In this document: piece by piece, positions 27,199-29,036 of the stretch
How the letters are laid out: each line of letters starts with the position of its first letter
How positions within the stretch are numbered: position 1 is the stretch's first letter
NCBI RefSeq assembly: GCF_052095765.1
Contig: NZ_JBQDJZ010000001.1
Span: 11,090 to 75,089 of the forward strand
Direction of reading: 5' to 3'
Source: Halomonas sp.
Lineage (GTDB): Bacteria > Pseudomonadota > Gammaproteobacteria > Pseudomonadales > Halomonadaceae
Length of the DNA: 64,000 bases
Translations under genes and position numbers: made by a program
The notes under the pieces: generated by a model
Told to the model about the DNA's origin: nothing
The model's input: only the letters and a program-made list of their open reading frames with translations
Databases searched by the model: none

Positions 27199-27312
27199 GG
27201 TTAAGGTTAAAGCAGAGGATAATGCGGCTGCAGACTTCCATTAACGTCGCTCAGCGGGCATTATATCCGCATAATATTCCGTTTCAGCCTGATGATCATG
27301 AGGGAAATAACG

Positions 27313-27438
27313 ATGGCAGAACACAATGTCTCACAAGACAGCACCGGCATCATGATGGTTGTGCTATTTCTGCTGGCGCTGGTTTTCCTGGCATGTGCGC
27401 CAGCCGTCGCCAGGTTATACGTGTTACTCGGCGCCTGA
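27313..27438 (+). CDS. Putative 41-aa single-TM small protein
   Basis: MAEHNVSQDSTGIMMVVLFLLALVFLACAPAVARLYVLLGA*, RBS-like GAGGGA upstream; below the ORF-track cutoff. Confidence 0.5.
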   Translation: MAEHNVSQDSTGIMMVVLFLLALVFLACAPAVARLYVLLGA

Positions 27439-27464
27439 TCAGCAGTGAACACAGGAGAAGCCTT

Positions 27465-27602
27465 GTGAGACCAGACCGTTCCATGATCAACATGCTGTCC
27501 CATCCGGACGTTCACCGTTCGGGTGAGGGCGTGTGTTCCACATTGTCTGGTTATTGGTATGGCAACGACTTTAGCGCCGGTGTGCCGGCGGCCCTGTCCT
27601 GA
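27465..27602 (+). CDS. Putative leader peptide 1 (45 aa, contains YWY..F)
   Basis: AGGAG 7 nt before GTG; VRPDRSMINMLSHPDVHRSGEGVCSTLSGYWYGNDFSAGVPAALS*; followed by attenuator-like hairpins. Confidence 0.45.
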   Translation: MRPDRSMINMLSHPDVHRSGEGVCSTLSGYWYGNDFSAGVPAALS

Positions 27603-27659
27603 TACATCACCAGGAACACTGAGGTCGAAAGGCACACCCGACAGGGTTGCCTCTCCCAG

Positions 27660-27700
27660 AACCCCCGGACGGCAACCCCGCCCGGGGGTTTTTGTTTGTT
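27660..27700 (+). terminator. Intrinsic terminator with competing antiterminator arm
   Basis: AACCCCCGGACGG-CAACC-CCGCCCGGGGGTT then TTTGTTTGTT; GGGTTGCC (27644-27651) is complementary to GGCAACCC (27671-27678). Confidence 0.75.
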
Positions 27701-27784
27701 GAGATTTTTATCGGGCGTTGTTTATCGAATACTGTTTAATGAATGACGGTAACATCAATGAATAGCATATCAAGGAGAGCAAAC

Positions 27785-27949
27785 ATGGCCGTAGCGTATA
27801 TTGTGTCTGACATCGAGTATCTGTCGGTGAGCACTTATTATTATTTCGGCTGGCGATTTAGCGACGCGCGGTCGGCTCACGTTGCCACCTCCGACCGTAG
27901 CACCTGTGGTGGCAAGACCCCCCACCGATGTAATCGCTCACGGAGATAA
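27785..27949 (+). CDS. Putative aromatic-amino-acid leader peptide 2 (54 aa, YYYFGWRF)
   Basis: AAGGAG RBS; MAVAYIVSDIEYLSVSTYYYFGWRFSDARSAHVATSDRSTCGGKTPHRCNRSRR*; TAA abuts the DAHP synthase RBS. Confidence 0.6.
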   Translation: MAVAYIVSDIEYLSVSTYYYFGWRFSDARSAHVATSDRSTCGGKTPHRCNRSRR

Positions 27950-27953
27950 CCCC

Positions 27954-29036
27954 ATGAATGCTTCTCTTACTGTGGCTTGCCAATCCAGTAAAACAACCCA
28001 CACAGCACGCCAGAGAACTGCTTCCGGTTTGCCGGTGTCCTTACCTGCTCCCGCTCAACTGCACCAGCGTCTGCCGGTGTCCGGCACACTTGCTGACCAG
28101 CTAGTGTCCCAGCGCCAGGCAATCCGCGATATTCTTGCCGGACACGATGACCGGTTGCTGGTCGTCGTGGGCCCTTGCTCGATTCATGATCCTACGTCGG
28201 CACTGGAATATGCCCAGCGGCTAGCGGAGCTGAGCGGAAAGATCAGCGATCGTATTCTGCCGGTGATGCGGGTCTATGTGGAAAAGCCACGCACTACGGT
28301 AGGTTGGAAAGGTCTTGCTTATGACCCAGCACTTGATGGCAGCGGCGATCTGGCGCGGGGAATCGAGCTCTCGCGGCGGCTAATGCGTGATGTCGCCATG
28401 CTTGGCCTGCCAGTGGCCACTGAACTGCTACAGCCGATGTTGGCGCCCTATCTCGATGATTTGTTGTCCTGGGTGGCCATCGGGGCGCGTACCACCGAGT
28501 CCCAGCCGCATCGCGAAATGGCCAGCGACTTGGCCGCGGTGGTGGGCTTCAAGAATGCCACCAGTGGAGACCTTCAGGTAGCGGTTGATGCCATGCAGGC
28601 GGCCGCCCATCCGCATCAGCACATTGCGCTTGGCTATGAAGGCTTGCCTGAAGTCAGACAGACCCGCGGAAATGCATATACCCACGTGGTGTTGCGTGGA
28701 GGACATGACGAGCCTAACTATCAAGCGCACTGGGTTTCCGCCGCCCGTAAGGTGCTGCTGGATGCCGGTCAGAACCCGCGGCTGATGGTCGACTGCAGTC
28801 ACGCTAACGCCCGCAAGGATCATCGTCGCCAGAGCGAGGTCATGCTCGATGTGCTGGCCCAGCGTGAAGCCGGCAATGCTGATCTGGTCGGGCTGATGCT
28901 GGAAAGTCACTTGAATGAAGGCAAGCAGCCACTGGTGCCGGGACAGCTGCGCCATGGTGTATCAGTGACCGATGCCTGCATCGGTTGGGAGACCACGGAG
29001 CATCTGCTGCTGAGTGCGGCGGAGCGGCTACGGTAA
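27954..29036 (+). CDS. 3-deoxy-7-phosphoheptulonate (DAHP) synthase, class I-alpha (AroF/G/H family)
   Basis: VVVGPCSIHD, YVEKPRTTVGWKG, IGARTTESQPHRE, GFKN, DCSHANARK, SVTDACIGW; ATG 27954 after GGAG. Confidence 0.97.
   Translation: MNASLTVACQSSKTTHTARQRTASGLPVSLPAPAQLHQRLPVSGTLADQLVSQRQAIRDILAGHDDRLLVVVGPCSIHDPTSALEYAQRLAELSGKISDRILPVMRVYVEKPRTTVGWKGLAYDPALDGSGDLARGIELSRRLMRDVAMLGLPVATELLQPMLAPYLDDLLSWVAIGARTTESQPHREMASDLAAVVGFKNATSGDLQVAVDAMQAAAHPHQHIALGYEGLPEVRQTRGNAYTHVVLRGGHDEPNYQAHWVSAARKVLLDAGQNPRLMVDCSHANARKDHRRQSEVMLDVLAQREAGNADLVGLMLESHLNEGKQPLVPGQLRHGVSVTDACIGWETTEHLLLSAAERLR

What the first reader, a model, noticed from the sequence alone, without database searches (positions are those of the whole stretch)
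27766..27956. Leader 2: YYYFGWRF peptide coupled to an anti-SD switch at the DAHP synthase start
Seen: AAGGAG RBS and a 54-aa ORF with 5 Tyr, 2 Phe and 1 Trp, six of them within YYYFGWRF (27836-27859). Its TAA (27947-49) directly follows the DAHP Shine-Dalgarno CGGAG (27941-45). Seen: interleaved, competing hairpins CGGTCGG (27869-75)/CCGACCG (27891-97) and TTGCCACC (27882-89)/GGTGGCAA (27908-15). These embed CTCCG (27889-93), which is complementary to that SD. There is no U-tract. Known: DAHP synthase commits carbon to all three aromatic amino acids, and in enterics it is controlled by TyrR/TrpR rather than a leader peptide. Inference: a translational attenuator integrating Tyr, Phe and Trp in one peptide.
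Basis: partly seen in the sequence, partly recalled or inferred. Interest (0 to 1): 0.72.

Follow-up and report, generated by a model that had tools for sequence, protein, structure and literature searches.

The report
Second aromatic leader ORF before DAHP synthase
A small Tyr/Trp/Phe-rich reading frame with a conserved RNA pseudoknot sits just before the first gene of aromatic amino-acid synthesis, is kept across Halomonas relatives and Pseudomonas, and is very probably a second ribosome-based sensor of aromatic amino-acid supply whose exact switch is not yet worked out.

Summary

The single-sequence fold is unremarkable (z = -0.6). The comparative evidence is strong:
- The element occurs once per genome in 79 of 151 genomes of the family (14 of 25 genera).
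- It also occurs in many Pseudomonas species, always between a P15-type terminator attenuator ("Leader 1") and a class-I DAHP synthase gene.
- In 157 distinct copies an RBS-linked ATG opens an in-frame ORF. Aromatic residues make up 35% of the 17 residues ending in the nearly invariant W-R-F, against 1.6% elsewhere.
- The two hairpins are conserved, with compensatory changes. They share no nucleotides, so they have H-type pseudoknot topology and do not compete.

There is no terminator and no Rfam family for this element.

The proposed CTCCG anti-SD is not the best-supported partner. In Halomonas-type loci CCGT plus 3-6 nt, which overlaps helix A's 3' arm, covaries with the SD region. Pseudomonas-type loci lack any anti-SD complementarity and instead carry an extra hairpin.

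Thermodynamic ribosome scans show no robust SD opening on stalling. The element is therefore a real regulatory leader ORF, and a translational attenuator is plausible but unproven.

Novelty: a new variant of leader-peptide control. I found no published description.

The parts
27772..27777 (+). Shine-Dalgarno AAGGAG of the leader-2 ORF, 7 nt before its ATG
   Evidence: An AGGAG-type RBS plus ATG is conserved in the alignments. In 148 of 157 distinct copies the RBS-linked ATG nearest the TGG codon is in frame with it.
27785..27949 (+). Leader-2 ORF (54 codons plus TAA)
   Evidence: It is in frame in 22 of 24 same-genus genomes, and all indels 3' of the aromatic run are multiples of 3. All 157 distinct copies have an open in-frame ORF of 39-61 codons.
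27836..27859 (+). Aromatic codon run YYYFGWRF (presumed stall site)
   Evidence: Across 157 copies the 17 residues ending in WRF hold on average 3.3 Y, 1.1 W and 1.4 F, which is 35% aromatic. The rest of the peptide is 1.6% aromatic.
27851..27863 (+). Nearly invariant block TGGCGATTTAGCG (W-R-F-S, with the rare Arg codon CGA)
   Evidence: It is invariant in 22 same-genus copies and nearly so in 14 genera found with the covariance model. All three codon positions carry 1.9-2.0 bits. TGGCGA is complementary to TTGCCA at 27882-87 (candidate helix D). The block was part of my search pattern, so the later loci are biased towards it.
27867..27875 (+). Helix A, 5' arm (CGCGGTCGG)
   Evidence: RNAalifold consensus. 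Cells paired: 98.5% in the genus and 90.8% over 70 sequences, with 5 of 9 pairs showing changes on both sides.
27882..27889 (+). Helix B, 5' arm (TTGCCACC), lying in the loop of helix A
   Evidence: 98.3% of cells are paired, with A-U, G.U and G-C alternating at one pair. Helix B was not part of the covariance model used to build the alignment.
27889..27893 (+).
   Evidence: CCTCC is present in 125 of 135 copies. It is replaced by GCCCG in L009, L013 and L014 while GGAG is kept.
27891..27899 (+). Helix A, 3' arm (CCGACCGTA)
27895..27901 (+). c1: better-supported anti-SD segment CCGTAGC, overlapping the last 5 nt of helix A's 3' arm
   Evidence: Cognate c1:c2 duplexes average -12.1 kcal/mol against -10.2 for non-cognate pairs, with 0 of 5000 permutations reaching the cognate value. 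Lineage-specific complementary variants are GAG/CTC, GAGC/GCTC, AGCG/CGCT and GAGATC/GATCTC.
27908..27915 (+). Helix B, 3' arm (GGTGGCAA)
27936..27945 (+). c2 (GCTCACGG) plus the Shine-Dalgarno GGAG (27942-45) of the DAHP synthase gene
   Evidence: In Halomonas-type loci the RBS is complementary to the b1/a2/c1 region: -12.7 kcal/mol against -9.6 for shuffles, mean z = -1.2.
27947..27949 (+). Leader-2 stop codon TAA, 4 nt before the DAHP synthase ATG
   Evidence: In 61 of 135 loci the stop lies from -4 to +7 nt relative to the ATG. In 64 it lies 37-50 nt upstream, followed by an extra hairpin.
27954..29036 (+). Class-I (AroF/G/H family) DAHP synthase gene, the regulated gene
   Evidence: NCBIfam TIGR00034 aroFGH scores 424 bits and PRK12755 scores 483 bits.

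Best explanation
Leader 2 is a translated regulatory mini-ORF. It is the second stage of a two-leader control region in front of a class-I DAHP synthase gene.

Stage 1 (27465-27700) is a homologue of the Pseudomonas 'sRNA' P15: an aromatic leader peptide with an intrinsic terminator. Transcripts that read through it carry Leader 2.

Inferred mechanism when aromatic amino acids are scarce:
- Ribosomes translating Leader 2 slow or stall at its Tyr/Trp/Phe codons when charged tRNA-Tyr, -Trp or -Phe is scarce.
- A ribosome held at UGG-CGA-UUU ends its footprint just before helix A, so helices A and B can stay folded. They have pseudoknot topology.
- In Halomonas-type loci, this window included, helix A's 3' arm contains the anti-SD (CCGT plus 3-6 nt, next to CACCTCC). 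The folded state therefore keeps the DAHP synthase RBS free for independent initiation.

Inferred mechanism when aromatic amino acids are plentiful:
- Ribosomes run through, melt helix A and release the anti-SD.
- They then pass over the RBS and terminate on it, because the stop codon lies 4 nt before the ATG. This lowers initiation.

What is shown:
- the conserved ORF and codon bias;
- the conserved helices;
- covariation of c1 with the SD region;
- the absence of a terminator.

What is inferred:
- stalling;
- the direction of the response;
- that the output is translation initiation.

Pseudomonas-type loci use a different 3' module whose logic I could not work out.

The confidence given (0.45) is for this specific mechanism. 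That the element is a ribosome-sensing regulatory leader at all I put at about 0.8.
For: Conservation and position:
- The ORF, RBS and aromatic run are kept in 22 of 24 same-genus genomes, in 14 of 25 genera of the family and in many Pseudomonas species.
- The element is always between a P15-type terminator and the DAHP synthase gene. P15 scores 109.5 bits on Leader 1 of L072, and sub-threshold hits fall on Leader 1 of about 20 same-genus genomes.

Signs of a codon-sensing leader:
- Aromatic residues make up 35% of the run against 1.6% elsewhere, and the Tyr positions vary.
- Indels are multiples of 3.

RNA structure:
- 93.8% of cells in helices A and B are paired, against at most 51% in slid controls, and 6 pairs show compensatory changes.
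- Conservation follows RNA elements, not codon position.
- There is no gap between TGG and helix A in any of the 70 aligned copies.
- Helix C covaries with the SD region, and type-I loci show significant anti-SD complementarity.
- Masking helix A's 5' arm raises the cost of opening the SD by about 1 kcal/mol on average, and by 3-4 kcal/mol in L019-L024. Masking c1 lowers it.

No intrinsic terminator follows the ORF.
Against: - Fold of the window's own element: z = -0.6.
- Ribosome-masking scans show no consistent drop in the SD-opening cost when the ribosome sits on the aromatic codons. The window itself shows a rise.
- Helix A is more stable than helix C, so naked RNA should already have a free SD. 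Repression then depends on ribosome traffic, which I could not model.
- Pseudomonas-type copies have no anti-SD complementarity (z = +0.4), and their stop codon lies 37-50 nt before the ATG. The SD-sequestration step is therefore at best lineage-specific.
- A stop codon this close to the downstream start is also the classic layout of positive translational coupling, which would give the opposite response.
- ViennaRNA cannot model the pseudoknot.
Confidence: 0.45

Rival explanations
1. Positive translational coupling. The DAHP synthase RBS is used mainly by ribosomes that have translated Leader 2 and terminate beside it, or that unfold local structure on the way. The ORF is then an activating upstream ORF. 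Its aromatic codons would tune expression or even lower it under starvation. This resembles repY-repZ of IncI-alpha and IncB plasmids, where leader translation plus a pseudoknot activates the downstream gene (recalled from memory).
For: - The stop codon lies from -4 to +7 nt relative to the ATG in 61 of 135 loci, including ATGA overlaps.
- The SD is embedded in the last leader codons.
- The cost of opening the SD is lowest when the modelled ribosome sits on c1 or later.
Against: - The response would run against pathway homeostasis and against stage 1, which turns on under starvation.
- Coupling does not explain why an aromatic codon composition is conserved.
- In 64 loci the stop is 37-50 nt upstream of the ATG.
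- Two genomes have lost the 5' half of Leader 2 but keep the SD and the gene (L016, L023).
Confidence: 0.2
2. The output is RNA fate rather than initiation. Leader-2 translation state would control Rho-dependent termination or RNase E decay. The C-rich, G-poor stretch between helix B and the RBS could be a Rho loading site. The AU island GAUUU in the invariant block fits an RNase E site (consensus recalled from memory) that a stalled ribosome would cover.
For: - There is no intrinsic terminator, yet the regulatory layout is conserved.
- By eye, a C-rich, G-poor segment follows helix B in both Halomonas-type and Pseudomonas-type copies.
- This output would work in both 3' architectures.
Against: - A ribosome stalled upstream would expose the C-rich RNA and favour Rho, which gives the wrong direction unless the pseudoknot blocks it.
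- I have no test of Rho or RNase E sites. The C-richness was not compared with the genome background.
Confidence: 0.15
3. A nascent-peptide sensor. The invariant W-R-F-S segment inside the ribosome tunnel would arrest translation in response to a free aromatic amino acid, as TnaC does with tryptophan. The arrested ribosome would sit on helix A's 5' arm, so that the anti-SD pairs with the RBS and shuts the gene off.
For: - W-R-F-S is invariant or nearly so in copies found with the covariance model.
- The modelled SD is most sequestered when the A site is 9-30 nt past TGG.
Against: - The block is equally conserved at synonymous positions. This points to an RNA-level or codon-level constraint, not a peptide one.
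- Part of the invariance is ascertainment bias.
- The variable positions of the Tyr codons fit codon sensing better.
- There is no anti-SD in Pseudomonas-type copies.
Confidence: 0.05
4. The conserved pseudoknot is a ligand-binding or protein-binding RNA, such as a riboswitch or operator, and the ORF is incidental to it.
For: - H-type pseudoknot topology with very conserved stems.
- No known Rfam family matches.
Against: - Loops L1 and L3 are the least conserved parts, at 0.1-0.9 bits, while the stems are conserved in sequence. This is the opposite of aptamers.
- The RBS, the ATG, the reading frame and the aromatic bias are all conserved.
Confidence: 0.04

Closest known systems
Rfam RF00627, Pseudomonas 'sRNA' P15 (Livny et al. 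2006, PMC1524904), which corresponds to Leader 1 of the same control region
   Same: - Same locus type. P15 lies upstream of a 1092-nt gene with a 221-nt gap in P. aeruginosa.
- In L072 P15 scores 109.5 bits on the aromatic leader ORF plus terminator that stands just before Leader 2 and a DAHP synthase gene.
- Both leaders share the TGG(CGA)TTTAGC core directly after an aromatic run.
   Different: - Leader 2 itself gives no P15 match or any other Rfam match.
- It has no terminator.
- Its ORF runs through all of its helices instead of stopping before them.
Classical leader-peptide transcription attenuators (trpL, pheL, hisL of E. coli)
   Same: A short RBS-led ORF enriched in codons for the end products of the pathway, followed by conserved helices.
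   Different: - There is no G+C hairpin with a U-tract.
- The leader stop lies at the downstream RBS.
- The stall site abuts the first helix rather than overlapping it.
- The helices are pseudoknotted, not alternatives.
aroR-aroF leader of Corynebacterium glutamicum (Neshat et al. 2014, as summarised in PMC11802643; PMC4046766)
   Same: A leader peptide with aromatic residues (Phe-Tyr-Phe) controls a DAHP synthase gene by ribosome stalling.
   Different: - It is described as a transcription attenuator.
- It is a single leader.
- It comes from a different phylum.
- Homology was not tested here.
Translational attenuation of ermC and cat-type resistance genes (from memory)
   Same: A leader ORF whose stalled ribosome would decide whether the downstream SD is accessible. 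No terminator is involved.
   Different: - In those systems the stalled ribosome directly disrupts the helix that masks the SD. Here it would preserve a helix that locks the anti-SD.
- The stalling signal would be amino-acid supply, not an antibiotic.
repY-repZ (repB-repA) control of IncI-alpha and IncB plasmids (from memory)
   Same: A leader ORF ends at the downstream RBS, and a pseudoknot takes part in translational control.
   Different: - In those plasmids the pseudoknot forms next to the SD and is opposed by an antisense RNA.
- Here it lies 40-50 nt upstream and no antisense RNA is known.

Membership tests
Classical leader-peptide transcription attenuator (trpL/pheL/hisL type) | Short ORF with its own RBS and start codon | tested here: met
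   AAGGAG, 7 nt, then ATG. This is conserved in 157 distinct copies.
Classical leader-peptide transcription attenuator (trpL/pheL/hisL type) | Cluster of codons for the amino acids made by the regulated pathway | tested here: met
   35% Y, W or F in the 17 residues ending in WRF, against 1.6% elsewhere.
Classical leader-peptide transcription attenuator (trpL/pheL/hisL type) | Intrinsic terminator (G+C hairpin plus U-tract) between leader and gene | tested here: not met
   No terminator-like site lies between 27700 and 27954. No U-tract follows helix B or the extra hairpin in relatives.
Classical leader-peptide transcription attenuator (trpL/pheL/hisL type) | Mutually exclusive 1:2 / 2:3 / 3:4 helices, with the leader stop before segment 2 | tested here: not met
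   Helices A and B share no nucleotides. The ORF runs through both to the RBS. Only candidate alternatives (helices C and D) exist.
Rfam RF00627 (P15) | Match to the covariance model at or above the gathering score | tested here: not met
   Nothing matches on 27766-27956 at E up to 10, and nothing matches on Leader 2 of L072. P15 matches Leader 1 instead.
Translational attenuation (erm/cat type) | SD of the downstream gene held in a helix when no ribosome is stalled | tested here: inconclusive
   Helix C covaries and type-I loci have anti-SD complementarity. However, helix A is more stable, the SD unpaired probability is 0.08-0.50 in free RNA, and type-II loci have no anti-SD.
Translational attenuation (erm/cat type) | A ribosome stalled in the leader shifts the fold so that the SD opens | tested here: inconclusive
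   Masking scans show no consistent opening at the aromatic codons. The pseudoknot is not modelled.
Translational coupling by a leader ORF (repY-repZ type) | Leader stop codon at or within a few nt of the downstream start | tested here: met
   4 nt in the window. From -4 to +7 nt in 61 of 135 loci, but 37-50 nt in 64 others.
Translational coupling by a leader ORF (repY-repZ type) | Pseudoknot formed next to the downstream SD | tested here: not met
   Helix B ends at 27915 and the SD starts at 27942. The pseudoknot lies wholly inside the leader ORF.
Programmed -1 ribosomal frameshift signal | Slippery heptamer X XXY YYZ 5-9 nt before the pseudoknot | tested here: not met
   The heptamer in that position is G CGA UUU. 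The -1 frame hits TAG at once, so no extended product is possible.
H-type pseudoknot riboswitch | Conserved loop and junction nucleotides forming a pocket, with stems that covary freely | tested here: not met
   Loops carry 0.1-0.9 bits and stems 1.1-2.0 bits.

The most novel reading that the evidence does not exclude
This is a new class of amino-acid attenuator. The stalled ribosome parks directly against an H-type pseudoknot and preserves it instead of disrupting a helix. The 3' arms of the pseudoknot have second partners close to the RBS: the SD region in Halomonas-type loci and the arm of an extra hairpin in Pseudomonas-type loci. The fold state would be relayed to translation of DAHP synthase without any terminator. 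Together with the P15-type stage 1, this would be a two-tier sensor, transcriptional then translational, that integrates Tyr, Trp and Phe supply at the entry of the shikimate pathway in Pseudomonas and Halomonadaceae.
Probability: 0.3. Interest if true: 0.75.

Novelty: new variant of a known kind. Interest (0 to 1): 0.62.

Why it matters
DAHP synthase sets carbon entry into the shikimate pathway. In Pseudomonas and Halomonas, both used as production hosts for aromatic compounds, its genetic control is poorly described.

These data make three points:
- The catalogued 'sRNA' P15 is the first of two leader-peptide stages.
- A second, terminator-less leader ORF with a conserved pseudoknot follows it in well over 150 distinct genome copies.
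- This second stage may work by a layout not described for amino-acid biosynthesis genes.

If that holds, it gives a directly testable case of combined transcriptional and translational attenuation. It also gives a concrete target, removal of the leader, for deregulating aromatic production in laboratory strains.

Tried and rejected
1. Single-sequence folding of 27766-27975 is no more stable than shuffles, so structure cannot be argued from this sequence alone.
2. Rfam gives no family for Leader 2.
3. ViennaRNA ribosome-masking scans, both with the whole leader and with downstream RNA only, show no consistent SD opening at the aromatic codons.
4. CTCCG as the conserved anti-SD is not kept in three same-genus genomes.
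5. In Pseudomonas-type loci I tested the helix A 5' arm, the b1/a2/c1 region, helix B's 3' arm and the W-R-F block against the extra hairpin's arms and the RBS. Only helix B's 3' arm against the hairpin's 3' arm stood out (z = -1.5). The hairpin's 5' arm against the RBS or early coding region was negative, so I could not complete a switch model for that architecture.
6. RNAalifold and an unbiased helix scan found only helices A and B as family-wide helices.
7. Frameshift signal: there is no slippery heptamer.
8. Riboswitch: the loops are variable.
9. Literature searches for a described second leader before DAHP synthase in Pseudomonas or Halomonas found nothing. This covers only the held library.
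11. The second DAHP synthase paralogue of this genome (L031) has no comparable aromatic leader.
Full report
**1. Observation**

Reading 27400-28300 and listing ORFs confirms every item in the finding.
- AAGGAG lies at 27772-77 and ATG at 27785.
- The 54-codon ORF has 5 Tyr, 2 Phe and 1 Trp. Six of these fall in YYYFGWRF (27836-59).
- TAA at 27947-49 comes one base after CGGAG (27941-45). The ATG at 27954 opens a 360-aa protein. This protein is a class-I DAHP synthase: TIGR00034 aroFGH at 424 bits and PRK12755 at 483 bits.
- No terminator-like site lies between the upstream terminator (27660-27700) and the gene.
- As a single sequence the region does not fold better than shuffles (z = -0.60). 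It matches no Rfam family.

**2. Conservation in the genus**

The genome has two DAHP synthase paralogues. Orthologues of the one in this window, at 66-81% identity, exist in 23 same-genus genomes.

Aligning their upstream regions shows the whole arrangement is conserved. An aromatic leader ORF ending ..YWYGYWFSAGVPAAMS* is followed by a strong terminator (Leader 1). Next comes AGGAGA-ATG and a second ORF with the consensus ..GYYGYWRFSExRS..ATSDR...GG..RC...RS*, which ends 2-10 nt before the gene.
- 22 of 24 genomes keep the second ORF in frame. L016 and L023 have lost its 5' half.
- All indels 3' of the aromatic run are multiples of three.
- L017 has lost two Tyr codons, so the run is not absolutely fixed.

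**3. Breadth**

- A covariance model of the core finds one copy per genome in 79 of 151 genomes of the family, covering 14 of 25 genera. The best hit outside the family in 250 genomes of the order scored 41 bits.
- That hit, L072, has the same layout. An ORF ..FYFGYWFSHWRA* with a terminator matches Rfam P15 at 109.5 bits. It is followed by the ORF MNYATYYRYDTCTAWRFSKLRSGQPAASDRSPIGG...CRTPQ*, and then by a DAHP synthase gene.
- A pattern scan of one genome per species returned at least 120 loci. They came from many Pseudomonas species, from Halomonas, Chromohalobacter, Vreelandella, Billgrantia, Onishia, Modicisalibacter, Bisbaumannia and Franzmannia, and from one Paucimonas MAG.
- Leader 1 is therefore the RNA catalogued as sRNA P15. 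In P. aeruginosa P15 lies 221 nt upstream of a 1092-nt gene on the same strand (PMC1524904). That gap is the right size to hold a Leader 2. I did not check P. aeruginosa itself.
- Sub-threshold P15 hits of 24-40 bits fall on Leader 1 in about 20 same-genus genomes.

**4. Evidence that Leader 2 is a translated, codon-sensing ORF**

Among 157 distinct copies:
- The RBS-linked ATG nearest to TGG is in frame in 148, and all 157 have an open in-frame ORF of 39-61 codons.
- The 17 residues ending in W-R-F hold on average 3.3 Tyr, 1.1 Trp and 1.4 Phe, which is 35% aromatic. The rest of the peptide is 1.6% aromatic.
- The positions of the Tyr codons differ between lineages (YYGY, YGYGY, YATYYRY and others). 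What is conserved is composition, as in known attenuator leaders.
- The rare Arg codon CGA is the most used Arg codon, at 2.4 per leader.

**5. RNA structure**

- RNAalifold recovers helix A.
- In the genus, helix A (27867-75 with 27891-99) has 98.5% of cells paired and helix B (27884-89 with 27908-13) has 93.9%. Each has one compensatory pair.
- On a 70-sequence alignment spanning both families, 93.8% of cells are paired against at most 51% when partners are slid. Six pairs change on both sides. The alignment was fitted to helix A but not to helix B.
- The order a1 < b1 < a2 < b2, with loops of 8, 1 and 8 nt, is H-type pseudoknot topology.
- Conservation follows RNA elements, not codon position. 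Stems carry 1.1-2.0 bits at all three positions and loops 0.1-0.9 bits. The peptide 3' of W-R-F-S is therefore a by-product of the RNA.
- No gap occurs between TGG and helix A in any aligned copy. A ribosome with UGG, CGA or UUU in its P or A site would end its footprint at the foot of helix A. This step is inference from known ribosome footprints.

**6. The link to the RBS**

- CTCCG belongs to CACCTCC at the B/A junction and is present in 125 of 135 copies. Three same-genus genomes have GCCCG there while GGAG is unchanged.
- A better partner is c1, CCGT plus 3-6 nt (27895-27901), which pairs with the bases just 5' of GGAG and running into it (27936-43).
  - Different lineages carry different complementary versions: GAG/CTC, GAGC/GCTC, AGCG/CGCT and GAGATC/GATCTC.
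  - Cognate duplexes are stronger than non-cognate ones, -12.1 against -10.2 kcal/mol, with 0 of 5000 permutations reaching the cognate value.
  - c1 overlaps the last 5 nt of helix A's 3' arm, so A and C exclude each other.
- Loci fall into two 3' architectures.
  - Type I has 61 loci, this window included. The leader stop lies from -4 to +7 nt relative to the gene's ATG.
  - Type II has 64 loci, comprising Pseudomonas and some Halomonadaceae. The stop lies 37-50 nt upstream and a stable hairpin (H3) stands between stop and SD.
- The b1/a2/c1 region is complementary to the RBS in type I (-12.7 against -9.6 kcal/mol for shuffles, z = -1.2) but not in type II (z = +0.4).
- In type II, helix B's 3' arm is complementary to H3's 3' arm (z = -1.5). 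I found no partner that would then close the RBS.

**7. Tests of the switch**

- Masking a 31-nt ribosome footprint along the ORF and computing the cost of opening the RBS gave no consistent drop at the aromatic codons.
- With only the RNA downstream of the ribosome, the mean cost is 7.0-7.4 kcal/mol at the aromatic codons. It rises to 8.0-8.2 when helix A's 5' arm is covered and falls to 6.3 once c1 is covered. The effect is 3-4 kcal/mol in L019-L024 and absent in several others, the window included.
- The model ignores pseudoknots and kinetics.
- Helix A is stronger than helix C, so naked RNA should already show a free RBS. Any repression in plenty must come from ribosomes running through and terminating on the RBS.
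- A candidate '1:2' pairing exists between the invariant TGGCGA and the 5' part of b1 (27851-56 with 27882-87). It would explain the fixed CGA codon. One side never varies, so it cannot be tested by covariation.

**8. Reading**

I am fairly sure, at about 0.8, that this is a translated regulatory leader that senses aromatic aminoacyl-tRNA supply as the second stage after the P15-type attenuator.

I am much less sure, at about 0.45, of the specific mechanism in the best explanation. In that mechanism stalling preserves the pseudoknot, the anti-SD stays locked and the RBS stays open. Run-through ribosomes release the anti-SD and occlude the RBS.

Positive coupling, control through Rho or decay, a nascent-peptide sensor and a ligand-binding RNA remain as rivals.

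**9. Known relatives and novelty**

- Leader-peptide control of a DAHP synthase is known in Corynebacterium glutamicum (aroR, Phe-Tyr-Phe, a transcription attenuator; PMC11802643 and PMC4046766).
- In enterics the genes are under TyrR and TrpR (PMC5343134).
- Leader 1 is catalogued as P15. I found no description of the second leader, its pseudoknot or the tandem design in the held library.
- Earlier notes of this scan report the same 'second conserved small reading frame whose role is unclear' in Pseudomonas and Acinetobacter. I confirmed Pseudomonas independently and did not check Acinetobacter.
- It fails the defining terminator test for classical attenuators. I file it as a new variant of leader-peptide control, not as a member of any named family.

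**10. Limits**

- The pattern used contained TGGCGATTTAG and parts of helix B, so those loci are biased towards them. The covariance-model hits are less biased.
- Many sequences are close relatives, so counts are not independent events.

Noticed in passing
window 27465-27700: Leader 1: an ORF ending ..SGYWYGNDFSAGVPAALS* (stop at 27600-02), followed by a terminator at 27660-27700. It is a diverged homologue of Rfam P15. It scores 24 bits here and 24-40 bits in the same position in about 20 same-genus genomes. P15 scores 109.5 bits on the equivalent element of a Pseudomonas-type locus. P15 therefore looks like a leader-peptide attenuator, not a trans-acting sRNA.
   Followed up: partly
window 27292-27438: A 48-aa ORF (MAEHNVSQDSTGIMMVVLFLLALVFLACAPAVARLYVLLGA) has a hydrophobic core. 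A similar small ORF stands in the same place upstream of Leader 1 in L002 and in most of the other genera aligned. It may be a conserved small membrane protein.
   Followed up: no
A3 alignment columns 734-775 (loci L048-L067): A conserved promoter-like pair, (C)TTGCCA then about 17 nt then TAGGAT, lies upstream of Leader 1 in other genera. No equivalent aligned in the window, and the promoter scan found no + strand site there.
   Followed up: no
window 27700-27771: The spacer between the Leader 1 terminator and the Leader 2 RBS is AT-rich and about 70 nt long. It is longer here than in most of the same-genus relatives aligned, where it is often about 20-40 nt.
   Followed up: no
L016 and L023 (same-genus genomes G024 and G003): These are natural deletions of the 5' half of Leader 2: the RBS, the aromatic run and helix A with most of helix B. 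Leader 1, the segment from about helix B's 3' arm onward, the SD and the gene are all kept. Leader 2 can therefore be lost in nature.
   Followed up: partly
window 27851-27863 and Leader 1 at 27566-27578: Both leaders carry TTTAGC right after TGG, which places a TAG stop in the -1 frame immediately after the aromatic codons. The meaning is unknown. It may simply reflect descent of both leaders from one duplicated unit.
   Followed up: no
Pseudomonas-type loci, e.g. L072 1636-1672: A stable hairpin (GGGCAUAGCGCGCGGG..CCCGCCGCUUGCCC) lies between the leader-2 stop and the SD. By eye, the stem sequence differs between species while staying complementary (for example GCGGAG/CTCCGC in L158 and GCTGCG/CGCAGC in L161). 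Analogous hairpins with the stop codon in the loop occur in Chromohalobacter and Modicisalibacter. No U-tract follows.
   Followed up: partly
G000 contig C66, locus L031 1501-2484: A second class-I DAHP synthase paralogue, 51% identical, has no comparable aromatic leader ORF upstream.
   Followed up: partly
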